Origin: an uncultured Planctomycetales bacterium
GTDB lineage: Bacteria; Omnitrophota; Gorgyraeia; Gygaellales; Profunditerraquicolaceae
Direction of reading: 5' to 3'
Assembly: GCA_964545575.1 (NCBI GenBank)
Contig: CAZJFL010000002.1
Span: forward strand, 59,564 to 123,563
Length of the DNA: 64,000 nucleotides
Positions 1,095-58,788 of this stretch are shown here, piece by piece (position 1 is the stretch's first letter; every line of letters begins with the position of its first letter). A model generated the notes under the pieces. That model made no database searches, was not told where the DNA came from, and saw only the letters and a program-made list of their open reading frames with translations. A program made the position numbers and the translations under genes.

Positions 1095-1166
1095 GTGTCA
1101 AGGTATCAGGTGTCAAGGTATCAGACGTTACTTACTTTGACACTTTGATACTTGACACTTTGATAC
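1095..1166. repeat. Family A palindromic element built from GTGTCAAGGTATCA / TGATACnnTGACAC units
   Basis: GTGTCAAGGTATCAGGTGTCAAGGTATCAG-loop-TTTGACACTTTGATACTTGACACTTTGATAC, upstream of polX. Confidence 0.8.
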
Positions 1167-7477: not shown

Positions 7478-8712
7478 TTTAGTTCTTTAATTAAGTCTTC
7501 GGCTTTTAGCTCTCTTTGTGCCCCCGATTCCATATCCTTTAAGGTTACTACGCCTTTCTTAAGTTCATCCTCTCCTATAATCAGAACGTATCTGGCGCCT
7601 AAATCATTGGCCTGGCGCAGCGCACCTTTGAGGGATTTACCGGTATAATCGGTATCCGCAGGGATTCCAGCCTTACGCAGCAGATTTAATAATTTTAGGC
7701 CCTCTGCCTTGGCTTCTTCCCCCAAAGATATCAGGTAAACTAACTTGGGGCTTGGAGCTTGGAGCTTGGAGTCAGAAACCAAGAACAGCCTTTCTATGCC
7801 AAAGGCAAAACCCATGGCGCCGGTATCCGGGCCGCCTAATTCCTTAACCAGATTATCATATCTGCCGCCTGCGCCCAGGGCATCCTGAGCGCCTAATCTA
7901 TCGTGTATAATTTCAAAGACGGTGCTGGTATAATAATCCAGGCCGCGCACCAGGCGGGGATTTACGGCATACTTAATTCCTAAAGCATCCAGGCCTTTTT
8001 TCACCCCTTTGAAATGCCCGGCGCAGTCGGCGCAGAGATGTGCGTCGCCAAGCTTCAATGTTTTAATCACCTCAATACAGGCTTCATTTTTACAGTCCAG
8101 GACCCTTAAGATATTGGTTTCAAGCCTCCTGCGACAATCAGCGCAGAGCTTTGCGGTTTTATCTTTCAGGGATTTACCTAACACAGCTACTAACTTTGCT
8201 TTATCTTTGGTGCAGCCCAAGCTGTTAATTTCTATTTTATAATCGGTTATGGAAAAAGCTGCCAGCAGAGCGTCGGCCAGCGCAATCACCTCTGTATCCA
8301 CAGCGGCATCGTGGCCGCCAATGACTTCTACGCCTAAATGATGGAACTGGCGTAATCTTCCTTTTTGCGGCCGCTCCATGCGGAACATCGGCCCCAGGTA
8401 ATAGAGTTTTAAGAAGCCTTTAGTTTTATCCAGGCTATTTTCAAGATAGGCGCGTACCACCGAAGCCGTGCCTTCGGGCCGCAGGGCATATGTGTCGCGC
8501 TCCTTTTTAATCAGAAACATTTGTTTGCGCACGATTTCGGTGGATTCGCCGAGGGAACGGTTGAATAATGCCGCCTCCTCGATTAAAGGCGGGCGGATCT
8601 CCAGGTAATTATAAACAGAGAGTATGCTGCGGGCCGTATTCTCTATGGCCTGCCACCAGGATACTTCTTCGGGCAGTATATCTTTTGTTCCGGTTATTCT
8701 TTTAATCATCAA
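7471..8712 (-). CDS. hisS: Histidine--tRNA ligase
   Basis: 413 aa with N-terminal GTKDILPEE motif, class II core and C-terminal anticodon-binding domain. Contains an in-frame heptamer x3 repeat. Confidence 0.9.
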
Positions 8713-9189: not shown

Positions 9190-12100
9190 CTATATCACTA
9201 AAGATAATTTATCTTCGCCGAGAAGGTTTTCGATATCTTCGATTAATTTCTCCGAAGGAGCAACGTAAAACCCTTCCCCTACCACCAACTGGACGCGGGA
9301 TTTAGCCGGAGTATCCAGGTGCAAATAGATGGGCACGTTCCCGCGCGAAGTAGCTAGTAATCCTTTTAGGCTCTCAAAAAGGTTTTCTCTGGCGCCGGAT
9401 AGATTAATATTCAGGGCAGTGATTAATTTATAGACGTCCTCGACAGGGATTAAGTCATTGACGATGATTTTAGGGGTGTCTTCGCGTAAGGAAAGCCTGC
9501 CCCTGACCAGGACTACGGTATTAGGCTGGATATAGTGGGAGACTTTTTGAAACGCCGCTGGAAAGACGAGAAGTTCTACTATCCCCTCCAGGTCCTCTAA
9601 TTTTAAAATCGCCATTTTTTCCTGTTTTACGCGGGTCAGGGTCTGTTTGATTTTTGAGATCATCCCCACTATTTTTATTTCTTCTGCGTCGGTATGCTGG
9701 CTGAGTTTTGCGATTGAGGTAGAGGCAAAGCGTTTTAAGTGTTGGGCGTAGCGCGCCAAAGGGTGGCCGCTGACGTAAAAGCCGAGCATTTCTTTTTCAA
9801 AAGCGAGCAACTGCGGTTCAGGCCACTCTTTTATTTTGGTAAAACTTTCTTTTAAGCTTTGCTGGAATCCGTTCTGCTTTAATGCCTGATCAAAGAAAGA
9901 TAACTGCCCTTTAGACTGCTCTTTCTGCCTTTTGGAGGAAAGTTCTAATAACCTATCCAGGTTAACCGCCATCTGAGCCCGGGGCATAGTAAAGAAATCC
10001 AGGGCCCCGCATTTAATCAGGCTTTCCAGCACTTTCTTGTTCACTAATCTTAAGTCAATGCGCTGGCAGAGGTCTTCTAATGAGGCAAAGTGCCCCTTTG
10101 TTCTAGCCTGAATTATAGACTCCGCAGCTCCTCTGCCGACATTTTTTATTGCCAGGAGCCCGAAACGGATCTGTTTTTCATCCGCCGCCTTAAACAAGGC
10201 ATCGCTTTCGTTGATATCCGGAGGCAGCACCTGTATGCCCATGTGCGCGGCTTCATTTACGTATTCTACGATTTTGTCGGTATCGTTGCGTTCCGAGGTT
10301 AAGAGCGCGGTCATAAACTCTACAGGGAAATTAGCCTTTAGATATGCAGTGCGGTAAGAAATCAGGGCGTAGGCGGCGCTGTGTGATTTATTGAAGCCGT
10401 ACCCGCAGAAGTGTTCTATGAAATCGAAGGTTTTATTGGCGACGGATTCGCTGATGGCGCCTTTTACGCAGCCTAAGACAAAGTTTTTTCTTTGCTGCTC
10501 CATAACTTCCGGGATTTTCTTGCTCATTGCCCGGCGCAACAAATCTGCCTGGGTGAGGCTAAAACCGGCTAAGGAAGACGCAATCTGCATGACCTGTTCC
10601 TGATAGACCATGATGCCGTAAGTCTCCTTTAAAATCCCCTCGAGTTTTTTGTGGTCGTATCTAATCGGGGTGCGGCCGTGTTTACGCTGGATAAAATCAT
10701 CAAGCATGCCTGAGCCGATGGGCCCGGGGCGGTATAAAGCCAAAAGCGCGATCAGGTCTTCAAACCTCTCCGGCTCCAGTTTTTTCAGCAAATCGCGCAT
10801 CCCGGAACTCTCCACCTGAAATACTCCGCTGGTCTGGGCAGAGGCCAGGAGTTTATAGGTCTTGGGGTCATCCAGGGGAATGTCTTCAATATCAATGGTT
10901 TTGCCCCGCCTCTGCTTTACTATCTTTAAAGTCTGGTCTATCACGGTCAGGGTTCTTAAGCCCAGGAAATCAACTTTCAGCAGCCCGGTTTTTTCCAGCA
11001 TCGTCATGCTGTAACCGGTGGTGATCTGGTCGTCCTGAGTCTTAAATAAAGGCATATAATTATCCAGCGGCTTGTCCGCGATGACCACCCCTGCCGCATG
11101 CACCGAGGCGTGGCGGTTTAAGCCCTCCAGGGATAAAGCCGTATCAATCAGTTGTTTTATCTGCGGGTCGTTTTTATAGAGGCTCTTTAATTCCGCCTCG
11201 CTCTCTAAAGCATCTCTTAAGGTTATGCCCGGGTCAGGGGGGATCATTTTGGCAATCCGGTCCACATCGGCATAGCTTATCCCCATCACTCTTCCGACGT
11301 CCCTGACTACCGCGCGCGCCTGCATCGTCCCGAAAGTGATAATTTGCGCGACATTTTCCTGCCCGTATTTCTTAGTTACGTAATCGATGACCTCCTGCCT
11401 TCTTTCGTAACAGAAATCAATATCTATATCCGGCAGCCCCTGCCTCTGTGGATTCAGGAAGCGCTCGAATAATAAACCATAATTCAAAGGGTTGATATCG
11501 GTAATTCCTAAGAGGTAACTGACCAGGCTTCCCGCAGCCGAGCCCCGGCCGGGCCCCACCGGTATATTCTGGCTCTTAGCGTAATGGATAAAATCCCAGA
11601 CAATTAAAAAATAACTGGTAAAACCCATCTTCTGGATAGTTTCTAATTCGTGTTCCAGGCGCTGGGTGATCTCCGTGCTTAGTGTTTTGAAGCGTTCCTT
11701 TAATCCTTTTTCGCAAAGTTCCCGCAGGAACTCGTCTTTAGTTTTACCTACCGGGGCTTCGTATTTAGGCAGGTGCACTAAAGAGAAATCCAGCTCCAGG
11801 TTGCAGCGCTTAGCTACCTCTTGGGTATTAGCGATGGCTTCGGGAATCTCCTTAAAAAGTTCTTTCATCTCCTGAGGCGACTTAAAATAAAACTCATCGG
11901 TCTGAAAACGCATGCGGTTGGGGTCATCAAGGGTGGTCTGGGTCTGAATGCAGAGCAATGCCTCGTGGCTCCTGGCGTGCTCTTTTAAAAGATAGTGCAC
12001 GTCATTGGTGGCGATCAGGGGAATATTTAATTCTTTGGAGATTTTGATTAACCCCGCATTTACGGCCTTCTGTTCGGGGATTAAATTCTCCTGTACTTCT

Positions 12101-12627
12101 AAATAGAAATTATCTTTACCGAGAATATTCAGGAATTCGTCGGCTGCCTTAAGGGCGTCGTTAAAACGCCTCTCCTTAAGCAGCACCGGGATTTCCCCTT
12201 TAAGGCAAGCGCTCAGGGCAATCAAGCCTTTGGCGTACCGGGAAAGGATCTCTTTATCAATGCGCGGCCGGTAATAAAAACCTTCCAGATACCCGGCTGA
12301 AACCAGCTTCATCAGGTTTTGATAGCCGGTTTCATCCTTGGCTAAAAGGATCAAATGGTAAGAGGCTTCGTCAATCCCGCCCAGTTTTTTTTCCAGGCGG
12401 CTTCCCGGCGCAATGTATACTTCAGAGCCGATAATCGGTTTTATCCCGGCCTTCTGCGCCTCCAGATAAAAATCCATCGCCCCGAACATATTGCCGTGGT
12501 CGGTAATCGCCAGGGAATCCATTTTATAAGCTTGAGCCAGCTTAAGCAGGTCAGGTATGCGGCAGGCGCCGTCTAATAGGCTATATTGGGTGTGCAGGTG
12601 AAGGTGGATAAAATCGGAATGCGGCAT
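9190..12627 (-). CDS. dnaE: DNA polymerase III subunit alpha
   Basis: 1145 aa with N-terminal PHP domain (HLHLHTQYSLLDGA) and the polymerase core; length typical for DnaE. Confidence 0.95.
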   Translation of the reverse strand: MPHSDFIHLHLHTQYSLLDGACRIPDLLKLAQAYKMDSLAITDHGNMFGAMDFYLEAQKAGIKPIIGSEVYIAPGSRLEKKLGGIDEASYHLILLAKDETGYQNLMKLVSAGYLEGFYYRPRIDKEILSRYAKGLIALSACLKGEIPVLLKERRFNDALKAADEFLNILGKDNFYLEVQENLIPEQKAVNAGLIKISKELNIPLIATNDVHYLLKEHARSHEALLCIQTQTTLDDPNRMRFQTDEFYFKSPQEMKELFKEIPEAIANTQEVAKRCNLELDFSLVHLPKYEAPVGKTKDEFLRELCEKGLKERFKTLSTEITQRLEHELETIQKMGFTSYFLIVWDFIHYAKSQNIPVGPGRGSAAGSLVSYLLGITDINPLNYGLLFERFLNPQRQGLPDIDIDFCYERRQEVIDYVTKKYGQENVAQIITFGTMQARAVVRDVGRVMGISYADVDRIAKMIPPDPGITLRDALESEAELKSLYKNDPQIKQLIDTALSLEGLNRHASVHAAGVVIADKPLDNYMPLFKTQDDQITTGYSMTMLEKTGLLKVDFLGLRTLTVIDQTLKIVKQRRGKTIDIEDIPLDDPKTYKLLASAQTSGVFQVESSGMRDLLKKLEPERFEDLIALLALYRPGPIGSGMLDDFIQRKHGRTPIRYDHKKLEGILKETYGIMVYQEQVMQIASSLAGFSLTQADLLRRAMSKKIPEVMEQQRKNFVLGCVKGAISESVANKTFDFIEHFCGYGFNKSHSAAYALISYRTAYLKANFPVEFMTALLTSERNDTDKIVEYVNEAAHMGIQVLPPDINESDALFKAADEKQIRFGLLAIKNVGRGAAESIIQARTKGHFASLEDLCQRIDLRLVNKKVLESLIKCGALDFFTMPRAQMAVNLDRLLELSSKRQKEQSKGQLSFFDQALKQNGFQQSLKESFTKIKEWPEPQLLAFEKEMLGFYVSGHPLARYAQHLKRFASTSIAKLSQHTDAEEIKIVGMISKIKQTLTRVKQEKMAILKLEDLEGIVELLVFPAAFQKVSHYIQPNTVVLVRGRLSLREDTPKIIVNDLIPVEDVYKLITALNINLSGARENLFESLKGLLATSRGNVPIYLHLDTPAKSRVQLVVGEGFYVAPSEKLIEDIENLLGEDKLSLVI

Positions 12628-12632
12628 TTTGG

Positions 12633-12696
12633 CTTATCGCTTATCGCTTATCGCTTATCGTAGAACGATGTGCGATTTGCGATATGCGCTATGCGA
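12633..12696. repeat. Family B palindromic element, intergenic copy between dnaE and guaA
   Basis: GGCTTATCGCTTATCGCTTATCGCTTATCG-TAGAA-CGATGTGCGATTTGCGATATGCGCTATGCG. Confidence 0.85.
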
Positions 12697-12698
12697 GT

Positions 12699-14240
12699 TT
12701 ACTCCCATTCAATCGTTGCGGGCGGTTTTGAGGAGATATCGTAGACTACGCGATTTACGCCTTTGACTTCGTTAATCACGCGGTTAGCAATCTTCTCGAG
12801 GACTTCATAGGGGAGTTTTACCCAGTCGGCAGTCATGCCGTCGAGGCTGGAAACGCAGCGCAAGGCCGCCACATTTTCATAAGTACGTTCATCCCCCATC
12901 ACCCCCACACTTTTTATGGGCAGGAGTATGGCAAAAGATTGCCAGACCTGTTCGTAGAGCCCGGCGCCCCTGATTTCTTCGATCACGCGCTGATCTACTT
13001 CGCGCAGGATATTCAGGTATGGTTGTGTTACCTCTCCGATAATCCTGATCGCTAATCCCGGACCGGGAAACGGCTGGCGGCTGATGATCTGGTCCGGTAG
13101 GCCGAGCTCTCTGCCGATCTGGCGCACTTCGTCTTTGAATAATTCCCGTAAAGGTTCGACGAGTTTTAATTTCATCTGCGCCGGTAGGCCGCCTACATTA
13201 TGGTGGCTTTTGATGCGGCTGGAGGGCGCGCCGCTGGGAGAAAAAGATTCGATGACATCCGGATAAAGAGTCCCCTGCCCGAGGTATTTTACGCCTTTTA
13301 CTTTCTTGGCCTCTTCTTCAAATACCTTGATAAACTCTTCCCCGATAATTTTTCTCTTGTCTTCGGGGTCAGTGATGCCTTCCAGCCGGGTGAGGAATCG
13401 CTTGCTCCTGTCTACGTAATCCAGGTTTAAATGGAAATTATTACGGAAGACATTTTTTACCTGCTGCGGTTCATCTTTACGCAGCAGCCCGTTATCCACA
13501 AAGATGCACCTTAAGTTCCTGCCGATCGCTTTATGGATTAAGATTGCCGCGACCGAAGAATCAACCCCGCCGCTTAAGCCTAAGACCACCTTGTCGCGGC
13601 CGATAGTTTTTTTTAATCCGGCAATGGTTTCTTTGACAAAAGATTCCATGGTCCAGCGGCTGGTGCAGCCGCAGATTTTAAATAAAAAATTAGTTAAGAT
13701 CTGATTGCCTTTTTCCGTATGCGTTACTTCCGGATGGAATTGAACCGCATAAATCTTGCGCTGGCGGTTGCTGATCGCCATAATCGGGGTATTCAGCGTA
13801 TGGGCGGTGGTGCGAAAGCCGGGCGGAAGTTTGTTCACCAGGTCACCGTGGCTGGCCCAACAGGTAAAGTTACCCGGGATGTGGCCGAATAAATCGCGGT
13901 TATCGTCTAAAAATAACTCTACTTTGCCGTACTCGCGCTCTTTGGTGTGCTTGACTTTGCCGCCGAGCATTTCGGTGATTACCTGCATACCGTAACAGAT
14001 ACCCAAGACCGGTACGCCTAATTTAAATATGCCTTTATCGGGATACGGGCTTTTCTTTTCAGTTACCGATGCCGGCCCGCCGGAGAGAATTAACCCTTTG
14101 GGTGACATCGCGGCGATCTCTTTTGCCGGCATATTATAAGGTATGATTCTGGAGAACACTTTACTTACCCTGACGCGCCGGGCAATAAGCTGCGTATACT
14201 GCGAGCCGAAATCTAAAATAAGTATGGTTTGTCTGGTCAT
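12699..14240 (-). CDS. guaA: GMP synthase (glutamine-hydrolysing)
   Basis: 513 aa with a GATase1 domain, the ATP-PPase SGGVDSS motif and a C-terminal dimerisation domain ending in IEWE. Confidence 0.95.
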
Positions 14241-15529: not shown

Positions 15530-15670
15530 GCACATAACTTACGGAAGCACTGGAAGTGCGACGTAAGTTATAAGTGCGAACTTACCCCGCACCGTAAAGG
15601 TGCGGGGTAAGTTCGGCCAAATAAGTTATGTCGCTGATATATTTAATATACAGCTCCATAACTTATGGCC
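15530..15670. repeat. Composite of three consecutive hairpins that include a Family C element
   Basis: Hairpin 1: GCACATAACTTACG...CGTAAGTTATAAGTGC. Hairpin 2: a perfect 16 bp hairpin, GAACTTACCCCGCACC-GTAAA-GGTGCGGGGTAAGTTC. Hairpin 3: GGCCAAATAAGTTATG-loop-CATAACTTATGGCC. All in the 347 bp guaB-groEL spacer. Confidence 0.8.
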
Positions 15671-17408: not shown

Positions 17409-17477
17409 TGTGTCAAAGTGTCAGAGTATCAGGTATCAAAGTGCCATGACACCTTGACACTTTGATACTTTGACACC
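17409..17477. repeat. Family A palindromic element between groES and groEL
   Basis: GTGTCAAAGTGTCAGAGTATCAGGTATCAAAGTG...CACCTTGACACTTTGATACTTTGACAC. Confidence 0.8.
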
Positions 17478-19304: not shown

Positions 19305-19340
19305 GATAGTATCAAGGTATCAGGTGTCAAAGTATCATAG
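19305..19340. repeat. Family A element, partial or single-arm copy upstream of coaX
   Basis: TGATAGTATCAAGGTATCAGGTGTCAAAGTATCATA. Confidence 0.6.
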
Positions 19341-23959: not shown

Positions 23960-24026
23960 ATATCAAGGTATCAATGTGTCAATGTATCAAAAAACTTTGA
24001 TACTTTGATACATGACACTCTGATAC
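23960..24026. repeat. Family A palindromic element between yebC and rnpB
   Basis: ATATCAAGGTATCAATGTGTCAATGTATCAAAAAACTTTGATACTTTGATACATGACACTCTGATAC. Confidence 0.8.
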
Positions 24027-24036
24027 TTTTTTAAAA

Positions 24037-24433
24037 GGGGCAGGTAGAATAAGCCGAGTCTTGTCCGGAAACGATTATCCGTTGCCTGGTGATCATTCCT
24101 CTAAGTCCCCGATATTACCATCAGGGCTCAAGCAGCCTACCCGAGATTAGTGACGGGGCGGACAAGCCCCTCATCTCCTATTTGGCCTTGCTCGGCGTAG
24201 AGATTACCTCGTTTCACGTTGCCGCAAAAACGCAAAACGTCGGTAAAACGCAAAAATATTTTGCGCTTTTGCGTAAAAATTTTGCGTTTTTGCGGTTGCT
24301 CGTCTCTGTGGCTCTAAATCCTCTCCGGTTATGCGCCGGAGGGCGGGTATTACCCGCTACGCCTGTCCTCCTGAGCTCGGACTTTCCTCCCGCCATTGAT
24401 TCAGTGGCGGGCGACCACCTTCTACCTGCCCAG
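24037..24433 (-). ncRNA. rnpB: RNase P RNA (bacterial type A-like) with an expanded AT-rich P12-like helix
   Basis: The reverse strand contains GGAGGAAAGTCCGAGCTC and GGCCAAATAGG...GGGTAGGCTGCTTGAGCC...ACAAGACTCGGCTTAT. A P1 pairing of GGGCAGGTAGAA at the 5' end with TTCTACCTGCCC at the 3' end closes the molecule. Confidence 0.85.
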
Positions 24434-25662: not shown

Positions 25663-25736
25663 TGGGCGTAATAGGACTTGAACCTATGACCTCTACAATG
25701 TGAGTGTAGCGCTCTAACCAGCTGAGCTATACGCCC
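25663..25736 (-). tRNA. tRNA-Val (anticodon CAC)
   Basis: Manual cloverleaf fold: GGGCGTA acceptor, GCTC/GAGC D-stem, anticodon loop CTCACAT, T-loop TTCAAGT. CCA is not encoded. Confidence 0.85.
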
Positions 25737-25742
25737 TGTATT

Positions 25743-25807
25743 CGCTTATCGCTTAGCGCATATTGCTTATCGTCCAAACGATATGCGATTAGCCATATGC
25801 GATATGC
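25743..25807. repeat. Family B palindromic element, intergenic copy between two tRNA genes
   Basis: CGCTTATCGCTTAGCGCATATTGCTTATCG-TCCAAA-CGATATGCGATTAGCCATATGCGATATGC. Confidence 0.8.
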
Positions 25808-25814
25808 TAAACTC

Positions 25815-25887
25815 TGGGCCCGCAGGGATTTGAACCCCGGACCAAGTGATTATGAGTCACCTGCTCTGACCACTGAGCTACGGGCCC
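25815..25887 (-). tRNA. tRNA with CAT anticodon (elongator Met or Ile2/lysidine)
   Basis: Manual fold: GGGCCCG acceptor, anticodon loop CTCATAA, T-loop TTCAAAT. No initiator signatures. Confidence 0.8.
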
Positions 25888-34581: not shown

Positions 34582-35463
34582 TTAGATGACCTCTAAGCTT
34601 AAATCTACCGACTCCAGGGAATGGGTTAATTCGCCGATAGAAATAATATCTACCCCGCAGGAGGCGATTTTACGCACACTCTTTAAATCTACGCCGCCGG
34701 AGGTTTCTAGTTTAGTCCGAGGGTGGTGGCTGTTAAAGACAGTGTTATTTCTGATTTTTACCGCTTTTTTAATCTCGGCTAGGTCCATATTATCCAGCAT
34801 AATCACATCGGGTTTAAACCTGAGGGCATGCCTGAACTCATCGAGATTCTGTACTTCTATCTCTATTTTAAACCCTTTGGGCACGCTGGGCAGCCGGTCA
34901 TAACCTGCGGTGACTTTAATATGATTGTCCTTAATCAGAATCATCTCGTCTAAACCCATACGGTGATTGTATCCCCCGCCGATTCTTACGGCGTATTTCT
35001 GCAGTTCGCGCAGGCCAGGCATAGTTTTTCTGGTGTCGGTGATTTTTGTCTTATAGGGCTCTATCTTTCTGACGTATTCGCGGGTCTTAGTAGCCACTCC
35101 CGACATCATCGATATAAGATTAAGCGCTACTCTTTCTGCGGTTAAGATACTCCTGGCTTTTCCGGAAAGTTCGGTGATGATCTTGCCTTTTTGGGCAGGC
35201 TTGCCGTCTTTACTTAAGGGTTTAAAAGAAATGTCCTTATCTACCGCCTTAAACACGGCTTCGGCAACCTCCAGGCCGCAAATTATACAGTCTTCTCTGA
35301 CTAAAATTACGGCCTTAATCTCTTTATCTTCGGGAATAGTGAGCCGGGTAGTGATATCTCCTTTGCCGATATCCTCGATCAGCGCCTTGCGCACGATTAC
35401 TTCCAGCCTTGATTTTTCTATATGGGGAGCCGCATCCGAGAGAAAATATTTATCTAAAGCCAT
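34582..35463 (-). CDS. nadC: Nicotinate-nucleotide pyrophosphorylase (carboxylating)
   Basis: 293 aa, type II PRTase family pattern. Confidence 0.9.
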   Translation of the reverse strand: MALDKYFLSDAAPHIEKSRLEVIVRKALIEDIGKGDITTRLTIPEDKEIKAVILVREDCIICGLEVAEAVFKAVDKDISFKPLSKDGKPAQKGKIITELSGKARSILTAERVALNLISMMSGVATKTREYVRKIEPYKTKITDTRKTMPGLRELQKYAVRIGGGYNHRMGLDEMILIKDNHIKVTAGYDRLPSVPKGFKIEIEVQNLDEFRHALRFKPDVIMLDNMDLAEIKKAVKIRNNTVFNSHHPRTKLETSGGVDLKSVRKIASCGVDIISIGELTHSLESVDLSLEVI

Positions 35464-38299
35464 CTCTTGCCGCCTTTACTTTTTTTAAAGCTTCTTTTAG
35501 CTCCTCTAGTTTAGAGCTTTCTTTTGCTACGATCTCTTCCGGCGCCTTCTTTACAAACTCCTTATTCGCCAAAGTTTTTTCTTTGGCTTTTATTTCTGCT
35601 TCTACTTTAGCGATCCTGTCTTCTAGCTTAGCCTTTTCTTTTTCTATATCGATAACACCTTCTAGGGGAAGAGTGATATGCATGTCTTTGACAATAGCGC
35701 TGATACTGGATTTTATATGGGTATATTTTTGTTCTATATCGAGGCGGCTTAACTTAGCCAGTTTTTTGATCTGGGCAGACAGCCCGGAAACCAGTTCTCT
35801 TGTTTCCTTTGCTGCGCTTGAAATGATGGCGTTTATTTCCTCGTCCTGCGGGATATCCAGCTCCTGGCGCATATTTCTTATAGTGGTGATTGTCTCTAAA
35901 ATCAAGCTCATCCTCTCTTCTAATTTCTTATCGATTATTTGCTCCTGGATGTGCGGCGAGGGCTGAATGCTGATGGATTTCCCTTGATGAGGAAGCGCCT
36001 GCCAGACCTCTTCGCTAATAAAGGGCATAAAAGGATGGATTGCGCGCAGGAACTTTTCCAGCACCTTGTACATGACTACTTGGATTTGCGGATTTTTAAT
36101 ATCTGATTTAATCATCTCCAGGTACCAGTCGCAGAACTCATGCCAGAAGAAGCCGTATAAAAGGTTTGCCGCTTCGTTAAAACGGTAAGCCGCCAAATTA
36201 TTATTTACTTGCTTAAGCGTAGAATAAAATCTGCTTAAAATCCAGCGGTTAACTAAGCCAAATCCTTTATAAGGGGCTGTCCCCGCAGAAGGCGGGGCAC
36301 CAAACCATTCCCGCAAAGGCGGGACACCGACGCATCCTTTAGCGTCGGGTGCAGGTTTGGGTGCCTCCGTAATACCAAGATTCATCAGGATAAACCGGGA
36401 GGCGTTCCAGATTTTGTTGGCAAAGTTCCTTCCCTGTTCAAATCTTTCTTTGGAAAGATGCACATCCTGGCCCTGGGCCGTGATTGCAATCAGGCTGAAA
36501 CGCAGAGCATCGGCGCCGTATTCATTAATAATGTCCAGCGGGTCAATGATATTGCCCAGCGACTTGGACATCTTTTTGCCTTCGATATCGCGCACTGTGC
36601 CGTGGATATAGACATCCTTAAAGGGTATCTCTTTCATGAATTCCAGGCCCGCCATGATCATGCGCGCCACCCAGAAGAAAATGATTTCCGGAGCAGTAAC
36701 CAGAACCGAGGTAGGGTAAAAATAAGCTAAATCTTTTTGCTTATCGCTTATCGCTAATCGCTTATCGTCTTGCACGATATGCGATATGCGATATGCGCTA
36801 TGCTCGAATGGCCAGTAAAAGACCGCAAACGGCCACAGCCAGGAAGAAAACCAGGTATCCAGCACGTCTTCGTCCTGATAGATATCAGTCGAGCCGCAAT
36901 GTGGACACTTGTCGGGTTTAATTCTGGAAACTATAACTCCCTCCTGCTTATCGCTTATCGCTAATCGCTTATTGGCCTTTTGCGATATGCGATATGCGAT
37001 ATGCGATATGCAGTTCTTACAATAATAAACCGGCAACCTGTGCCCCCACCAGATCTGGCGCGAGATGCACCATTCTTGAATATTCTCCATCCAGTCCAAA
37101 TATACCTTAGTCCAGCGCTGCGGATAGAATTTAATTTTACCCTTTTTAACTGCCTCTATCGCCGGTTTTGCCAGCGACTGCATCTTCACAAACCATTGTT
37201 TGGATAAATACGGCTCAATAATGGTGTGGCAACGGTAACAATGGCCTGCGGATAACGGATGAGGTTCGACTTTTTCTAGCAATCCTTTTTCCTTTAAATC
37301 CTCCAGAATTACTTCCCGCGCCTGGAATCTATCCATATCTTTATAATCACCGGCAAACTCATTCATGCGTCCGTCAGGATGCATCACGTTGATAAACTCC
37401 AGCTTATGTTTCTTTCCTAAAAGATAGTCATTAGGATCGTGCGCCGGAGTTACCTTAACCGCACCTGTGCCAAATTTCATATCCACCAGGCTATCGGCAA
37501 TGATTTTTATCTGCCGGTTGATCAATGGTAAAATCAGGATTTTACCGACGAGTTTTTTATAGCGTTTATCTTTGGGGTTGACCGCAACGGCTGTATCTCC
37601 GAGCATGGTTTCCGGACGTGTAGTCGCTACTACGACATGATCAGGGACAGTCCCCTTCAGGGACAGTCCCTGTGCTTCCTTTAGCGGATACCTCAAGTAA
37701 TATAAATTTCCCTGCAATTCGTGGTGTGGCGCCTCTTCGTCAGAAAGGGCAGTCTGGCAGCGCGGGCACCAGTTGATGATGTAGCTGCCTCTATAAATCA
37801 GGCCCTTCTCGTATAATCTGACAAAAACTTCAATCACAGCTTGAGAGTATTCTTCATCCATGGTAAAGCGCGTACGCGACCAGTCGCAGGAAACACCTAG
37901 CTTCTTTAACTGATGAATTATAGTTACACCGTATTGCTCCTTCCATTGCCAGACCCGCGCAATGAATTTTTCCCGGCCTAAGTCCTGACGCTTCAGTCCT
38001 TCTTTGGCGATCGCCTTTTCTACCACATTTTGCGTAGCGATTCCGGCGTGGTCAGTTCCCGGCATCCAGAGGGATTCTTCGCCTTGCATGCGGTGATAAC
38101 GGATAAGGATATCCTGAATAGTGTTATTCAGGGCGTGTCCCATATGCAGAATCCCGGTAACATTTGGCGGCGGGATGACTATAGAGAAAGGCTTTTTTGC
38201 AGGGTCTGCTTTTGCGGCAAAAAGATTATTCTCTTCCCAGAATTTGTACCACTTCTCTTCGGTTTCCTTAGGGCTATATCGAGTAGGTATTTCATTCAT
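35450..38299 (-). CDS. valS: Valine--tRNA ligase carrying two in-frame palindromic-repeat insertions
   Basis: 949 aa class I aaRS with HIGH (ILHMGHALN), WCISRQ, the zinc knuckle CKNC...CPHCGS and KMSKS. Two ~66 bp repeat copies encode the extra peptides ...SHIAYRISQKANKRLAISDKQEG... and ...HSAYRISHIVQDDKRLAISDKQKD... Confidence 0.95.
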   Translation of the reverse strand: MNEIPTRYSPKETEEKWYKFWEENNLFAAKADPAKKPFSIVIPPPNVTGILHMGHALNNTIQDILIRYHRMQGEESLWMPGTDHAGIATQNVVEKAIAKEGLKRQDLGREKFIARVWQWKEQYGVTIIHQLKKLGVSCDWSRTRFTMDEEYSQAVIEVFVRLYEKGLIYRGSYIINWCPRCQTALSDEEAPHHELQGNLYYLRYPLKEAQGLSLKGTVPDHVVVATTRPETMLGDTAVAVNPKDKRYKKLVGKILILPLINRQIKIIADSLVDMKFGTGAVKVTPAHDPNDYLLGKKHKLEFINVMHPDGRMNEFAGDYKDMDRFQAREVILEDLKEKGLLEKVEPHPLSAGHCYRCHTIIEPYLSKQWFVKMQSLAKPAIEAVKKGKIKFYPQRWTKVYLDWMENIQEWCISRQIWWGHRLPVYYCKNCISHIAYRISQKANKRLAISDKQEGVIVSRIKPDKCPHCGSTDIYQDEDVLDTWFSSWLWPFAVFYWPFEHSAYRISHIVQDDKRLAISDKQKDLAYFYPTSVLVTAPEIIFFWVARMIMAGLEFMKEIPFKDVYIHGTVRDIEGKKMSKSLGNIIDPLDIINEYGADALRFSLIAITAQGQDVHLSKERFEQGRNFANKIWNASRFILMNLGITEAPKPAPDAKGCVGVPPLREWFGAPPSAGTAPYKGFGLVNRWILSRFYSTLKQVNNNLAAYRFNEAANLLYGFFWHEFCDWYLEMIKSDIKNPQIQVVMYKVLEKFLRAIHPFMPFISEEVWQALPHQGKSISIQPSPHIQEQIIDKKLEERMSLILETITTIRNMRQELDIPQDEEINAIISSAAKETRELVSGLSAQIKKLAKLSRLDIEQKYTHIKSSISAIVKDMHITLPLEGVIDIEKEKAKLEDRIAKVEAEIKAKEKTLANKEFVKKAPEEIVAKESSKLEELKEALKKVKAARDGFR
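36740..36804. repeat. Family B palindromic element (CTTATCG)n-loop-(CGATATG)n, copy inside valS
   Basis: GCTTATCGCTTATCGCTAATCGCTTATCG-TCTTGCA-CGATATGCGATATGCGATATGCGCTATGC. In frame in valS. Confidence 0.9.
36948..37012. repeat. Family B palindromic element, second copy inside valS
   Basis: GCTTATCGCTTATCGCTAATCGCTTATTGGCCTTTTGCGATATGCGATATGCGATATGCGATATGC. In frame in valS. Confidence 0.9.
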
Positions 38300-38451: not shown

Positions 38452-38652
38452 TTAAATCTTTCCTGCGCGGAATTTATCCTGAAGTTCAACAATTCTTTTT
38501 GGAAGCCTCTTCCTTACTATATACCAAAAATCCCACATTTGCTCTAAGCATTTAAGTCGTTGATACGGTGTTGTATTTTTTACCGCATCCTCAAGATGCT
38601 CAAAAGGCTCTATATCATGAATTTTTAAATTATTTTCTTTTATTTTGTTCAC
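38452..38652 (-). CDS. Hypothetical protein (66 aa) in an AT-rich insertion
   Basis: ORF overlapping the end of the upstream nucleotidyltransferase-fold gene by 23 bp. No recognisable domain. Confidence 0.35.
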   Translation of the reverse strand: MNKIKENNLKIHDIEPFEHLEDAVKNTTPYQRLKCLEQMWDFWYIVRKRLPKRIVELQDKFRAGKI

Positions 38653-39139
38653 TTCTTAACCTCTCGATTTCTTCCAAGTTTCTGACGTCTATGAAATCTT
38701 TCGCTCTTTTAGCCAGTAATTTCAATTTTTTAAGGTGGGCTATGCAAACTACGGGAAAAACCAGGCCTTTTATACTTATTTTCTCTATTCTTTTTTCTAT
38801 ATCGTTAAACTTTATCGGTTCAGTTATAAATGCGTCTACTAATTTTAAATGGTCTTTAAGATGGAAAAATGAAAATACTACCATACCTTTTTTCTGTATC
38901 CACTCTTGGCGCTTTTGTTTATTTTTAAAATCTTCTTTTGTAACCGGAATTTTTGGCCTGTATCCTAAATTATAGAGCGCATCAAAAAACTTATCTAGGT
39001 TCCTTTCGCTTAATTCAACAATTAAATCTAAATCCACGGTTAATCTTGTATAACCATATAAAACAACTGCTACCCCCCCAGCAATTGCATATTTAACTTT
39101 ATTTTTATTTAAAGCTCTAATTACTTCGTTATAATACAT
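38630..39139 (-). CDS. Pol-beta-superfamily nucleotidyltransferase-fold protein (possible toxin-antitoxin or defence component)
   Basis: 169 aa. AIAGGVAVVLYGYTRLTVDLDLIV fits the hG[GS]-x9-13-Dh[DE]h minimal nucleotidyltransferase signature. Embedded in a ~27% GC region. Confidence 0.5.
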   Translation of the reverse strand: MYYNEVIRALNKNKVKYAIAGGVAVVLYGYTRLTVDLDLIVELSERNLDKFFDALYNLGYRPKIPVTKEDFKNKQKRQEWIQKKGMVVFSFFHLKDHLKLVDAFITEPIKFNDIEKRIEKISIKGLVFPVVCIAHLKKLKLLAKRAKDFIDVRNLEEIERLRSEQNKRK

Positions 39140-50791: not shown

Positions 50792-50856
50792 GTGTAAATT
50801 CGGCCATATAACTTACGTCGCCGCGGCTTGCTACATCGGCTCCGTAAGTTATGGCC
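50792..50856. repeat. Family C hairpin element between tRNA-Pro and tRNA-Tyr
   Basis: GGCCATATAACTTACG-loop-CGTAAGTTATGGCC with the same flanks (TTCGGCC ... CTCAtTTA) as the other copies. Confidence 0.8.
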
Positions 50857-51118: not shown

Positions 51119-51982
51119 CTAACTACATTTCTTTATCGCCTCTGGGATTTTAGCAATAATATCCGAGGCAATCAAGGAAATTTGCGTCTTCTCTTTAGCT
51201 GCTAAATCGCCGGCTAAACCGTGCAGATAAACCGCATATTTTGCCGCAGCAAACGCAGCCAAGCCCTGCCCTAAAAATGCGGCAATCATTCCGGTTAAAA
51301 CATCTCCGCTTCCTGCCGTGCTCATCCCGGGATTACCGGTCTTATTTATATATAATTTATTTTTATAATCGCTGACTACGGTATGATGCCCTTTCAGGAT
51401 AACGGTTAATTTATAATCCCGAGCAAATTTTTTGGTTATTTTATTTCTGGCGCCCTGAATCTTGGCTATGTTTGTCCCTAACAGCCTTGCCATCTCACCC
51501 GGGTGCGGGGTCAATACAGTTGACAGTTGACAATTGACAATTGACGCTAAGATATCCAAATGGCCGACTAAGGCATTCAATGCGTCAGCATCGATGACTA
51601 ACGGCTTGGCTATTTGCGATATAACCCTGCGTACTAACCCCTGCGTTTGCCGGTTCTGAGAAAGGCCGGGGCCGATTGCCAGAACATCAATATTTTTTGC
51701 AAAGTCTTTTATTCTTTGATAAGCGCCCGGCGCCAATGTCGCTTCTTTTGTCTCGGGAAGCGGCAACGTCATTACCTCCCGAGGCTTAATTCTCATTATC
51801 GCGGTATTCAAACTCTTAGGAATCCCCAACGTCACCAAACCTGCGCCCGTTCGCATAGCTGCCTCTGCGCATAAAACCGCGGCGCCCGAAAAGCGAGCGC
51901 AACCCGCTAAAATAAAAATGTGGCCGAAATCGCCTTTATGGGCGCCGGCTTTTCGGCGTAACAATCGCGAAGGCAGTCGCAT
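51119..51982 (-). CDS. nnrD: ADP-dependent NAD(P)H-hydrate dehydratase (YjeF C-terminal domain family)
   Basis: 287 aa, HKGDFGHIFILAGCARFSGAAVLCAEAAMRTGAGLVT carbohydrate-kinase-like pattern. Confidence 0.85.
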   Translation of the reverse strand: MRLPSRLLRRKAGAHKGDFGHIFILAGCARFSGAAVLCAEAAMRTGAGLVTLGIPKSLNTAIMRIKPREVMTLPLPETKEATLAPGAYQRIKDFAKNIDVLAIGPGLSQNRQTQGLVRRVISQIAKPLVIDADALNALVGHLDILASIVNCQLSTVLTPHPGEMARLLGTNIAKIQGARNKITKKFARDYKLTVILKGHHTVVSDYKNKLYINKTGNPGMSTAGSGDVLTGMIAAFLGQGLAAFAAAKYAVYLHGLAGDLAAKEKTQISLIASDIIAKIPEAIKKCS

Positions 51983-53040: not shown

Positions 53041-54249
53041 TCATGATTTATTTATCTGCTCCGCTACTCTTAACGCCTGTCGTACCGCTTTGACGTCATG
53101 GACCCTGACGATATGCGCTCCGTTTTGCGCCGCTAATACGCAGGCAGAAACCGTGCCGAAAACCCGCTCCTTTGGCGGAGCATTTAAAATCTTGCCGATA
53201 AAGGATTTTCTCGACGGGCCGACCAGTATCGGCATGCCTAAGGCCTTAAAGGCTTTAAGCTTCTTTAATATTTCCAGGTTCTGTTCCGGTAATTTTCCGA
53301 AGCCTATGCCCGGGTCGAGAATGATTTTTGCCTTATCTATGCCGGCAGAAACCGCCTTGCTTATCGCCTGATGGAAATATTCTATAATTTCATCGATTAA
53401 AGATTTATAAACCGGGTTTCTCTGCATGGTGCGCGGATTGCCCTTCATATGCATGATCACTATACCTGCCCTATACTTGGCAACGAGCCTGGTCATGGCA
53501 TTATTTCTTAATCCGGAAATATCGTTCACCATCACTGCCCCGCTATCTAAAGCCTGTTTGGCAACTTCGGGTTTATAGGTGTCTACTGAGATAGGCGCTT
53601 TTATTCTTTTAGACAATAGCTTTATTACGGGCACCACCCTGCTTATCTCTTCTTTTACGCCCACTGCTTTTGCCTGCGGGCGGCTGGATTCGCCTCCTAC
53701 GTCGATAATATCGGCACCGTCTTTAATTAATTGCCCCGCATACTCCAGAATATTAGCCTGGAGCCCGAAGCCCGAAGCCCGAAGTAAACCGTCTCCGCTA
53801 AAAGAATCGGGAGTAATATTCATCACCCCCATAATAGCGGTGCGCTTTGGATTTAAGTTCAACTTGTATCTACCTAAATCAATTCTGAAATTAGCTTTCT
53901 CGTAATTCTCTATTGCGGCTCCCAGCTCTTGAGCCAAAAGGCTCAAACCAAACGGCTGACGGTATAATTTCTGATTCAGGCGGTTAAACTGGGAAAGATT
54001 CCCCATTAACAGGCAGTCTGTTTTTTTGGCCCTGCCGGTCAGGGTATCGCGCGAAACTGCCGCATCAGCCCCCAGAGAAAGCATCTCCTGCTTTAAGATA
54101 TTGGCGGCAATACAGGATAAAGAACCGACTCTTATCAAATGCGTAATCGCCTTAGGGGCCATGATCTTAATGCCGTAAGAGTCGACCCTGATCTGGCGCA
54201 TGATTTGTCTTATCTCTTTAGAATCCGATATGGGTAGGATAGAGAGCAT
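53041..54249 (-). CDS. folP: Dihydropteroate synthase with a ~130 aa N-terminal extension domain
   Basis: C-terminal 270 aa is a pterin-binding DHPS (GVMNITPDSFSGDG...DIIDVGGESSRP). The N-terminal 130 aa is of unassigned function. Confidence 0.85.
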   Translation of the reverse strand: MLSILPISDSKEIRQIMRQIRVDSYGIKIMAPKAITHLIRVGSLSCIAANILKQEMLSLGADAAVSRDTLTGRAKKTDCLLMGNLSQFNRLNQKLYRQPFGLSLLAQELGAAIENYEKANFRIDLGRYKLNLNPKRTAIMGVMNITPDSFSGDGLLRASGFGLQANILEYAGQLIKDGADIIDVGGESSRPQAKAVGVKEEISRVVPVIKLLSKRIKAPISVDTYKPEVAKQALDSGAVMVNDISGLRNNAMTRLVAKYRAGIVIMHMKGNPRTMQRNPVYKSLIDEIIEYFHQAISKAVSAGIDKAKIILDPGIGFGKLPEQNLEILKKLKAFKALGMPILVGPSRKSFIGKILNAPPKERVFGTVSACVLAAQNGAHIVRVHDVKAVRQALRVAEQINKS

Positions 54250-58665: not shown

Positions 58666-58788
58666 TTAAACTCTAAACCCTAAACACTAAATCCTAAACA
58701 AATCCAAAACCCAAAATACAAAACGTTTTGAGTTTTTTAGTTTTGAATTTTGAGTTTGTTTAGAGTTTAGGATTTCGGATTTAGGATT
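58666..58788. repeat. Long imperfect palindrome (~60 nt arms) made of AAACCCTAAA / TTTAGG(G/A)TTT-like units, centred on AAAACGTTTT
   Basis: Intergenic between acsE and acsD. The left arm is rich in CTAAA(C/T)CC units and the right arm carries the mirror TTTAGGATTT units. Confidence 0.8.

What the first reader, a model, noticed from the sequence alone, without database searches (positions are those of the whole stretch)
12633..12696. Family B: ~65 bp imperfect palindromes built from heptamers CTTATCG and CGATATG (4 copies in the window)
Copies occur at 12633-12696 (dnaE-guaA spacer), 25743-25807 (between tRNA-Val and the tRNA with CAT anticodon) and twice inside valS.

The two arms are not exact reverse complements, so the predicted hairpin has a regular T-T mismatch every 7 nt. 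The arm length varies between copies (3-4 heptamer units), which suggests slippage-prone growth.

A REP/MITE-like family with a heptamer substructure does not correspond to any repeat family I recognise.
Basis: seen in the sequence. Interest (0 to 1): 0.55.

Follow-up and report, generated by a model that had tools for sequence, protein, structure and literature searches.

The report
Heptamer-built hairpin repeats inside essential genes
A ~65-base hairpin repeat made of four plus four 7-base units is scattered through this uncultured Omnitrophota genome. It sits between genes and also, read in frame, inside essential genes such as valS, much like the protein-coding palindromes of Rickettsia.

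Summary
The window holds four copies of (CTTATCG)4-loop-(CGATATG)4, at 12633-12693, 25745-25806, 36740-36802 and 36947-37010. Each folds into a strong hairpin with one T·T mismatch per heptamer. Independent assemblies carry the same copies.

The organism is a Candidatus Omnitrophota bacterium. Both valS copies lie in an intact 949-aa ORF and are read in frame (…ISHIAYRIS…DKRLAISDKQ…). In related genomes the same element, in the same frame, sits in tgt, hisF, korA, GH57 and an acyltransferase gene.

Between valS orthologs, four-fold synonymous sites are saturated (28-49% identity). The element arms stay 79-100% identical while the loops change freely.

Empty sites exist in a relative: a 9-nt guaA-dnaE spacer and an 877-aa ValRS. 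Other relatives carry different periodic hairpin families at the same three sites. One sample of the same species has 3 rather than 4 units, a 7-nt slippage difference.

Best reading (about 0.55): a selfish, REP/RPE-like palindromic insertion element with a fixed 4+4 heptamer build, translated where it lands in genes. The mobilising enzyme is unknown.

It meets neither the GTAG/CGTC tag that defines REPs nor the target-site duplication that defines MITEs. I rate it a new variant of a known kind.

The parts
12633..12693 (-). Family B copy 1, intergenic. On the + strand: (CTTATCG)4 at 12633-12660, loop TAGAA at 12661-12665, CGATGTG CGATTTG CGATATG CGCTATG at 12666-12693. It fills the spacer from the guaA stop (12699-12701) to the dnaE start (12627). 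In the mRNA sense the 3' arm is a perfect (GATAAGC)4, which has a stop in all three frames.
   Evidence: A 3-unit allele occurs in another sample of the same species, and empty spacers of 9 and 17 nt occur in relatives.
25745..25806 (-). Family B copy 2, the most degenerate copy. It lies between tRNA-Val (25663-25736) and tRNA-Met CAT (25815-25887). Left arm: CTTATCG CTTAGCG CATATTG CTTATCG. Loop: TCCAAA. Right arm: CGATATG CGATTAG CCATATG CGATATG.
   Evidence: Its right arm is identical to that of an intergenic copy in another species (L079 175-260).
36740..36802 (-). Family B copy 3, in frame inside valS ('site 1', between FYWP and DLAYFYPTS). It is 28+7+28 = 63 nt and is read as ..EHSAYRISHIVQDDKRLAISDKQK... 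Unit 3 is CTAATCG, which removes the TAA that would otherwise stop translation.
   Evidence: Orthologous copies are in L079, L080, L002 and L053. The site is empty in L101.
36947..37010 (-). Family B copy 4, in frame inside valS ('site 2', directly after the first CxxC of the zinc knuckle). It is read as ..CISHIAYRISQKANKRLAISDKQE...
   Evidence: The identical sequence is in the independent assembly L047. Orthologous copies are in L079, L080 and L063.
35450..38299 (-). valS (949 aa), the host gene of copies 3 and 4. The ORF is intact. Insert-free orthologs are about 877 aa.
12699..14240 (-). guaA, the gene upstream of copy 1. Its stop codon lies 5 nt from the element.
9190..12627 (-). dnaE, the gene downstream of copy 1. 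Its ATG lies 5 nt after the last heptamer, and there is no Shine-Dalgarno-like sequence in between.

Best explanation
Family B is a small, non-autonomous, selfish palindromic insertion element of Candidatus Omnitrophota. It is about 63-75 nt long: 4+4 heptamers plus a free loop.

It works like the Rickettsia palindromic elements and like intragenic REPs. Copies of a defined master sequence are inserted at many loci. Only insertions in tolerant places survive. Those places are the few bases between cistrons and surface loops of proteins.

Inside genes the element is transcribed and translated in the single frame that is open, adding about 21 residues (..ISHIAYRIS-loop-DKRLAISDKQ..) to the protein. 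The periodic mismatch, one T·T per 7 bp on the + strand and A·A in the mRNA, is a heritable feature of the master. By inference it keeps the 28-bp stem imperfect enough for replication, translation and nucleases to cope with it.

After insertion the loop drifts freely, and perfect tandem arms can slip by one unit.

Shown: the repeat family, the in-frame reading, filled and empty sites, nucleotide conservation beyond coding constraint, the orientation bias and the slippage allele.

Inferred: mobility by a trans-acting, probably sequence-specific and strand-specific enzyme (for example an HUH/Y1 transposase acting on single-stranded hairpins), and the role of the mismatches.
For: 1. Defined element rather than a free microsatellite. 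At least 18 copies from several species share 4+4 units, the same T·T positions, a position-specific variant unit (CTAATCG as unit 3) and a T-rich TTTTG 5' flank, at unrelated loci.

2. Insertion polymorphism. The guaA-dnaE spacer is 9 nt in L101 and 17 nt in L100, against 71 nt with the element in the window. L101's ValRS is 877 aa with both valS sites empty, and its 21.5 kb hold no periodic hairpin.

3. Genome-specific content. The closest valS relative in the set (L078, 76% identity) has no Family B in 22.8 kb, whereas more distant ones have 3 copies each.

4. In-frame copies sit in valS (3 sites), tgt, hisF, korA, GH57 and a lipid A acyltransferase gene, always in the same frame. Coding copies carry GATTAGC, which leaves one frame open. 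The intergenic copies 1 and L079a are (GATAAGC)4, with stops in all frames.

5. Every site in the count (valS, tgt, hisF, korA, GH57, the acyltransferase gene, tsaB/alr and three intergenic sites) has the same orientation relative to the gene. The exceptions are the L046/L070 pair and one half-copy. Stop codons alone would favour the opposite orientation 2:1.

6. Nesting is seen in a relative: a short palindrome sits inside another family's arm at valS site 1 in L078.

7. The inserts are the low-confidence, protruding parts of an otherwise confident ValRS model. Site 1 is predicted as helix-turn-helix.

8. Independent assemblies agree.

9. Known precedent comes from RPEs and intragenic REPs (PMC10969869, PMC3733652).
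Against: - No transposase or other mobilising gene was found, and I could not look for one genome-wide.
- No target-site duplication or clean excision footprint is visible. The only hint is an AAG(C)A microhomology at three junctions.
- Orthologous copies in species whose synonymous sites are saturated still have 79-100% identical arms. A purely selfish, decaying insert does not predict this. It requires ongoing re-copying, gene conversion or selection on the sequence.
- The same three sites carry unrelated periodic hairpin families in other species. That needs either strong site preference or replacement.
- Pairing shows no covariation above shuffles.
Confidence: 0.55

Rival explanations
1. 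Structured microsatellite made in place. A short hairpin seed grows by replication slippage of 7-nt units on one arm and hairpin-templated copying on the other. 'Families' are local products of concerted evolution, and nothing transposes.
For: - A one-unit (7 nt) length difference exists between samples of one species.
- A variant copy has the same C>G / G>C change in all four units of both arms (L060 3102-3175).
- Many unrelated unit sequences share the architecture 'tandem array - loop - inverted array' in this window and in relatives.
- Heptameric repeats are known to be over-represented in bacteria and sometimes occur as inverted pairs (PMC4692102).
Against: - The same 4+4 arrangement, with the same position-specific variant unit and the same mismatch positions, recurs at 10 or more unrelated loci and in several species. 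Independent local growth cannot explain that.
- Two sites of one gene usually carry the same family within a genome: 20 same against 10 different.
- Templated growth would erase the regular T·T mismatch.
Confidence: 0.2
2. Functional cis-element. It would be a hairpin or protein-binding sequence selected for its own sake, for example an intercistronic mRNA stabiliser or processing site, a translational coupler (guaA to dnaE), or the shared target of one trans-acting factor or small RNA.
For: - The arms are conserved far beyond synonymous saturation while the loops drift.
- The left (+) arm is the better kept: 26-28 of 28 against 22-27 of 28.
- There is an orientation bias relative to transcription.
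- Copy 1 and other periodic hairpins fill intercistronic spacers exactly. In copy 1 the 3' arm ends 5 nt before the dnaE ATG.
Against: - Relatives have empty sites.
- Unrelated families occupy the same sites elsewhere.
- The element sits inside unrelated coding regions.
- There is no terminator-like tail and no Rfam match.
- Pairing shows no covariation above shuffles.
- L053 keeps one arm only.
Confidence: 0.15
3. The valS inserts are not translated. They would be skipped by ribosomal bypassing, as for T4 gene 60 or the mitochondrial 'byp' elements, or removed from the RNA.
For: The hairpins inside the coding sequence are strong, about -30 to -33 kcal/mol. Hairpin-shaped inserts that are bypassed do exist elsewhere (from my own knowledge).
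Against: - Every coding copy is open in the host frame and keeps the frame.
- Coding copies carry the GATTAGC unit that removes the stop, while intergenic copies 1 and L079a do not.
- Loop length changes between orthologs keep the ORF intact.
- None of this would be needed if the insert were skipped.
Confidence: 0.03
4. Assembly or binning artefact, that is, chimeric or duplicated hairpins.
For: The source is a metagenome-assembled genome, and palindromes can mislead assemblers.
Against: - The same copies appear in independent assemblies from other samples (L047, L097, L098).
- Orthologous in-frame copies occur in several species and keep ORFs intact.
Confidence: 0.01

Closest known systems
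Rickettsia palindromic elements (RPEs; Ogata et al. 2000 and 2002, as summarised in PMC10969869 and PMC3733652)
   Same: Both are dispersed palindromic repeats found between genes and, unusually often, in frame inside unrelated housekeeping genes. Both add a conserved peptide that is compatible with protein function. Neither has a known dedicated transposase.
   Different: RPEs are about 100-150 bp and are confined to Rickettsia. Family B is about 65 bp, occurs in Omnitrophota, and its arms are four tandem heptamers with one regular mismatch per unit. No sequence relationship was tested, because I had no RPE sequences. Family B arms stay nearly invariant across species with saturated synonymous sites.
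REP / BIME elements and their RAYT transposases (GTAG- and CGTC-tagged palindromes; PMC3733652)
   Same: Both are short stem-loops in high copy number, mostly between co-directional genes. Both are sometimes intragenic, and different REPs can sit at the same site of one gene in related species. Both are species-specific in abundance and are thought to be mobilised as single-stranded hairpins.
   Different: REP stems are about 10-15 bp, with a conserved GTAG or CGTC tag at one foot. Family B has 28-nt arms with 7-nt periodicity, a TTTTG 5' flank and neither tag. RAYT linkage could not be tested.
Heptameric tandem repeats of bacteria: cyanobacterial STRR, and Xanthomonas GGGAATC and Nostoc GGGGAYT arrays (PMC4692102)
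   Same: The unit is 7 nt and the arrays are often intergenic. Some occur as inverted pairs able to form stem-loops. Array length varies between close relatives.
   Different: Those are open-ended arrays of variable length with other unit sequences, and they are not reported in frame inside essential genes. Family B has a fixed 4+4 build and behaves as one discrete element.
Small dispersed repeats (SDRs) of Nostoc (Elhai et al. 2008; from memory, the paper is not held in the library)
   Same: Both are very small mobile-looking repeats associated with heptamer arrays and other repeats, and both are sometimes found inside genes.
   Different: SDRs are 21-27 nt single units and are restricted to the Nostocaceae. 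They do not have a 4+4 heptamer hairpin.
MITEs (for example Correia, ERIC, Nezha)
   Same: Both are non-autonomous repeats with terminal inverted repeats, and both can be co-transcribed and fused in frame to ORFs.
   Different: MITEs are 70-300 bp, derive from IS elements and have target-site duplications. No duplication or IS parent was seen here.

Membership tests
REP (GTAG/CGTC-tagged) elements | A conserved GTAG or CGTC tetranucleotide at one foot of the stem-loop | tested here: not met
   In the aligned flanks of 18 copies, the 5' flank is T-rich (TTTTG) and the other foot is G-C. There is no GTAG or CGTC.
REP (GTAG/CGTC-tagged) elements | A short palindrome of 20-40 bp overall | tested here: not met
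   The arms are 28 nt each and the whole element is 61-75 nt.
REP (GTAG/CGTC-tagged) elements | Association with a RAYT (HUH/Y1) transposase gene in the genome | not testable with these tools
   Only the 64-kb window and fragments of up to 20 kb from relatives were available, and none was screened genome-wide.
Rickettsia palindromic elements | A palindromic repeat inserted in frame in many unrelated protein-coding genes and encoding a conserved peptide | tested here: met
   valS (3 sites), tgt, hisF, korA, GH57 and an acyltransferase gene, all in the same frame and with the same peptide.
Rickettsia palindromic elements | Sequence membership in RPE-1 to RPE-10, a length of about 100-150 bp, and Rickettsia as host | tested here: not met
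   The length is about 65 nt and the host is Omnitrophota. Sequence comparison with RPEs was not possible.
MITE | Target-site duplication flanking terminal inverted repeats | tested here: not met
   Filled and empty junctions at three sites show no direct duplication. There is at most an AAG(C)A microhomology.
Heptameric SSR / STRR-type arrays | Head-to-tail 7-nt units whose number varies by slippage | tested here: met
   TRF finds period 7 with about 4 copies on each arm. A 3-versus-4 unit allele exists within one species.
Heptameric SSR / STRR-type arrays | An open-ended array without a fixed architecture | tested here: not met
   All 18 or more full copies are 4+4 with a position-specific variant unit.
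Intrinsic terminator | A GC-rich stem followed by a U-run | tested here: not met
   There are no terminator-like sites in 12000-13400, and in the mRNA sense the tail is CAAAAUG.
Any Rfam RNA family | A match at the gathering score | tested here: not met
   Only RNase P RNA and 7 tRNAs were found in the window.

The most novel reading that the evidence does not exclude
All the periodic hairpin families of Omnitrophota, and perhaps the ATCGC-core arrays of Anaerolineae, may be products of one undescribed machinery that is sequence- and strand-specific. It would write or re-copy 'tandem heptamer - loop - inverted tandem heptamer' cassettes into preferred sites. That would explain three things together: the arms stay invariant while synonymous sites saturate, families replace each other at the same sites, and two sites of one gene carry the same family. 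Because 3 x 7 nt equals 7 codons, such a machinery would systematically seed heptad-periodic, helix-hairpin-like loops into essential proteins.
Probability: 0.15. Interest if true: 0.85.

Novelty: new variant of a known kind. Interest (0 to 1): 0.62.

Why it matters
Protein-coding palindromes have been treated as a peculiarity of Rickettsia. A 2024 review of prokaryotic MITEs only calls it conceivable that a similar mechanism of protein evolution operates in other prokaryotes (PMC10969869).

Here the same behaviour appears in an uncultured, free-living or host-dependent phylum. The element is half the size and has a strict heptamer build. Whole sets of families turn over at the same loops of an essential enzyme.

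It gives a concrete, testable case of three things:
- how selfish hairpins enter proteins;
- why 7-nt repeats are over-represented in bacteria;
- what keeps a repeat's sequence fixed when the host gene's silent sites are saturated.

There is also a practical side. These inserts inflate and fragment gene calls and alignments in Omnitrophota genomes assembled from metagenomes.

Tried and rejected
- An exact look-up of the window's ValRS found nothing on record. The source genome was reached later through guaA (P0121).
- A census of proteins carrying the insert failed twice. A 40-aa consensus peptide gave no candidates in the word-indexed search. The 30-aa window peptide gave 0 hits at E<=0.001 among 1.84 billion representatives. 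The scale of in-frame spread is therefore known only from the loci I fetched.
- The viral scan gave only simple direct (CTTATCG)n arrays with no hairpin copies, so there is no evidence for a phage vector.
- tRNA linkage of copy 2 is not general. Only one tRNA (L036, tRNA-Gln at 17-90) lies on the 13 related loci scanned, and it is not next to a Family B copy.
- I considered stop-codon avoidance as the reason for the T·T mismatch and rejected it. A perfectly complementary 5' arm would also be open in the frame used.
- My first hairpin scan was too strict and missed everything. It was redone with a milder mismatch penalty.
- Elhai 2008 and Ogata 2002 are not held in the library, so what I say about them rests on memory or on reviews.
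- The hits in Parcubacteria, Gemmatimonadota and Puniceispirillaceae genome bins could be mis-binned contigs or chance. I draw no conclusion about transfer between phyla.
- I considered a heptad coiled-coil reading of the peptide. AlphaFold gives helix-turn-helix at site 1, but with pLDDT below 50, so this stays only a suggestion.

Full report
**1. The observation**

The four copies are in the sequence as described. In register, each is a left arm of four CTTATCG-type heptamers, a loop of 5-8 nt and a right arm of four CGATATG-type heptamers:
- 12633-12660 / 12661-12665 / 12666-12693
- 25745-25772 / 25773-25778 / 25779-25806
- 36740-36767 / 36768-36774 / 36775-36802
- 36947-36974 / 36975-36982 / 36983-37010

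The double-heptamer pattern gives 18 matches against 0.83 expected. Tandem Repeats Finder reports period 7 with about 4 copies on every arm. A profile built from the family finds exactly these four copies in the window, at E 1e-20 to 1e-24.

Each copy folds on either strand into one long hairpin of -24 to -37 kcal/mol, z -3.0 to -7.3, with a one-base internal loop every 7 bp.

The copies are not assembly artefacts. L047 reproduces copy 4 with its flanks, and L097 and L098 reproduce copy 1, all from other samples.

**2. Context in the window**

The window comes from a Candidatus Omnitrophota bacterium. The ValRS and GuaA best hits are named Omnitrophota or Omnitrophica, and P0121 is 100% identical to the window's GuaA.

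All ORFs of 200 aa or more, all 7 tRNAs and the RNase P RNA lie on the - strand. GC skew is negative throughout. All four copies have the same orientation.

- Copy 1 fills the guaA-dnaE spacer. The guaA stop is at 12699-12701, the element follows, and then come 5 nt and the dnaE ATG at 12627, with no Shine-Dalgarno-like sequence.
- Copy 2 lies between tRNA-Val and tRNA-Met.
- Copies 3 and 4 lie inside an intact 949-aa valS ORF and are read through in frame, as ..FEHSAYRISHIVQDDKRLAISDKQK.. and ..CISHIAYRISQKANKRLAISDKQE...

No Rfam family and no terminator-like site coincides with the copies.

**3. The family outside the window**

A scan of species-representative genomes and a scan of metagenomes recovered the same hairpin in several Omnitrophota genomes. 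Orthologous valS loci were fetched as well.

Full copies are always 4+4 units. They share the same four mismatch positions, a TTTTG-like 5' flank and, in most copies, CTAATCG as the third left-arm unit.

On 18 copies, 77.6% of cells pair. This equals the shuffled expectation of 77.4%, so the hairpin is a property of the family consensus rather than something supported by covariation. Each T·T position is unpaired in 17 or 18 of the 18 copies.

In-frame copies, always in the same frame and giving the same peptide, occur in:
- valS, at three different sites
- tgt
- hisF
- the alpha subunit of a 2-oxoacid:ferredoxin oxidoreductase
- a GH57 enzyme
- a lipid A acyltransferase/ELM1-like protein
- the C-terminus of a TsaB-like protein

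In the transcript sense the 3' arm of coding copies is GATAAGC GATTAGC GATAAGC GATAAGC, which leaves exactly one frame open. The intergenic copies 1 and L079a have (GATAAGC)4, which stops all three frames. This contrast, the intact ORFs and the frame-preserving loop changes together argue that the inserts are translated rather than skipped.

**4. Insertion, conservation and turnover**

Empty sites exist. In L101 (GuaA 84% identical) the guaA-dnaE spacer is 9 nt, ValRS is 877 aa with both sites empty, and 21.5 kb hold no periodic hairpin. L100 has a 17-nt spacer. The elements are therefore insertions.

They are not decaying as free insertions should. Between valS orthologs, four-fold synonymous sites are 28-49% identical, which is saturated. 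The one exception is a closer pair at 71%. Against that background:
- The 33 nt GATAAGCGATTAGCGATAAGCGATAAGCAAAAA differ by at most one base from the window's copy at site 1 in the four other species that carry it, and 25 of 27 nt match at site 2.
- Left (+) arms are 26-28 of 28 identical and right arms 22-27 of 28.
- The loops differ in both length and sequence.

Something keeps the arms fixed. It could be selection on the nucleotide sequence, or continual re-copying or gene conversion from a master that is itself constrained, presumably by whatever protein recognises it. This is an inference, and the factor is unknown.

The same sites are also occupied by other families.
- In 120 ValRS orthologs, the two valS sites carry 7-aa-periodic peptides from at least five other heptamer hairpin families, or a short non-periodic palindrome, or nothing.
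- The families are patchy on a rough neighbour-joining tree.
- The two sites of one gene usually carry the same family: 20 same against 10 different among classified pairs.
- The guaA-dnaE spacer holds Family B in the window. It holds an unrelated 8-nt-periodic hairpin in a 94%-identical relative (L095), and the GTTCATA/TATGAAC family in L096, a genome that has Family B in valS.

Each genome thus seems to populate the same tolerant sites with its own resident families.

**5. Slippage**

A real one-unit difference does exist, however. L099, from the same species in another sample, has three GATAAGC units where the window, L097 and L098 have four.

A variant copy (L060 3102-3175) has the same C>G change in all four left units and the compensating G>C in the right units. 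That indicates homogenisation of units within an array.

Slippage therefore acts on these arrays, at least where no reading frame forbids a 7-nt change. It does not explain the fixed architecture shared by unrelated loci.

**6. How it most likely works**

The best-supported reading is a selfish palindromic insertion element of the REP/RPE kind. A defined 4+4 master is copied into many places. Survivors are those in intercistronic spacers and in surface loops, where the single open frame is read.

The ValRS model supports tolerance. It is confident overall (mean pLDDT 77), and the three insert regions (436-449, 500-515, 645-661) are among its nine segments with pLDDT below 50. Site 1 is predicted as helix-turn-helix. 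Because three heptamers make seven codons, the peptide is heptad-periodic. Whether it forms a helical hairpin remains only a suggestion.

The orientation bias is strong: valS, tgt, hisF, korA, GH57, the acyltransferase gene, tsaB/alr and the three intergenic sites all agree, against one exceptional locus. It fits either a strand-specific mechanism or selection against the more hydrophobic peptide encoded by the other orientation. In these co-oriented genomes the two cannot be separated.

The regular mismatch may protect a 28-bp stem from nucleases that cut palindromes or double-stranded RNA, and may ease its unwinding. That is an inference.

The rivals are a locally grown structured microsatellite, a functional cis-element, a bypassed insert and an artefact. 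Each is weighed in its own section. The first two remain live, because the mobilising enzyme is missing and the arms are conserved.

**7. Comparison with what is known**

The behaviour matches Rickettsia palindromic elements (in-frame spread in housekeeping genes; PMC10969869). It also matches intragenic REPs, including different REPs at the same site of one gene in related species (PMC3733652). The unit length matches the over-represented heptameric repeats of bacteria, some of which occur as inverted pairs (PMC4692102).

Membership fails for tagged REPs (no GTAG or CGTC, and much longer arms), for RPEs (size and host) and for MITEs (no target-site duplication). RAYT linkage could not be tested.

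I found no paper describing such elements in Omnitrophota. I therefore rate this as a new variant of a known kind.

Noticed in passing
window 1095-1166, 17410-17477, 19309-19337, 23961-24029: A second family of hairpins is built from alternating 8- and 7-nt units (GTGTCAAG GTATCAG ... TTGACAC TTTGATAC). All copies are intergenic and lie within about 30 nt of gene ends. It has the same 'tandem array - loop - inverted array' architecture as Family B.
   Followed up: partly
window 58667-58790: A 120-nt hairpin fills a spacer between two genes. Its arms are telomere-like heptamers: TAAACCC, TAAACAC, AAAACCC ... and TTTAGAG, TTTAGGA on the other arm.
   Followed up: no
window 36255-36375 (valS residues about 645-680): valS carries a third insert, a non-periodic nested palindrome (GGCACCCAAACC...GGTTTGGTGCC with inner hairpins; -55 kcal/mol, z -4.1). 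It encodes ..PPLREWFGAPPSAGTAP.. and most orthologs lack it.
   Followed up: partly
ValRS orthologs P0001-P0120 (alignment): Insert-free ValRS is about 876-880 aa, and others reach 990 aa through short inserts at about 15 sites. Recurrent peptides include GQSPSGTVP and LPGRQAG. At valS site 1 in L078 the LPGRQAG-type peptide is encoded by the short DNA palindrome CCTGCCTG-ACC-GGCAGGCAGG; the DNA behind GQSPSGTVP was not examined. In L078 that palindrome is nested inside the arm of a heptamer hairpin.
   Followed up: partly
L095 3575-3679; L096 2884-2958; L101 11543-11551; L100 5543-5559: In five relatives the guaA-dnaE spacer is either empty (9 or 17 nt) or filled by one of three unrelated periodic hairpin families.
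   Followed up: yes
L099 5094-5157 versus window 12628-12698: Within one species there is a polymorphism of exactly one heptamer: 3 against 4 GATAAGC units.
   Followed up: yes
L001, L005-L007, L009-L011, L013 (Anaerolineae/Chloroflexi bins); L024, L041, L044, L055, L071, L074 (metagenome contigs): Long arrays of heptamers share an ATCGC core and have two variable bases (GCTTATC, GCGTATC, GCTAATC, GCTGATC ...). They often face an inverted partner array, so the same architecture exists outside Omnitrophota. Hits in Parcubacteria (L008) and Gemmatimonadota (L015) bins may be mis-binned contigs.
   Followed up: partly
L046 975-1124 (= L070 5038-5153) and L046 1474-1511: Two adjacent Family B copies lie in the opposite orientation to their neighbouring genes. 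The second copy pairs a Family B left arm with a right arm of another family (TTTAGAG...). A lone (GATATGC)4 arm is read as AICDMRYAIC in a signal-peptide-like N-terminus.
   Followed up: no
window 15558-15634 and 50808-50852: A further, non-periodic palindrome family shares the motif GCGACGTAAGTTAT / ATAACTTACGTCGC.
   Followed up: no
window 38452-39139: Two small ORFs (66 and 169 aa, no Pfam match) lie between valS and the citramalate/isopropylmalate synthase-like gene. They are absent from the syntenic locus L078, so they are probably an inserted gene pair.
   Followed up: partly
window 24036-24429: An RNase P RNA (class A, 167 bits) lies on the - strand, with a periodic hairpin (23961-24029) immediately at its 3' end.
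   Followed up: no
window 1-64000: All ORFs of 200 aa or more, all 7 tRNAs and the RNase P RNA are on the - strand, and GC skew is uniformly negative. This is an extreme gene-strand bias over 64 kb.
   Followed up: no
window 7744-7771, 51516-51545, 53762-53784: Direct heptamer arrays without an inverted partner ((CTTGGAG)4, (ACAATTG)4, (AGCCCGA)3) lie inside long ORFs.
   Followed up: no
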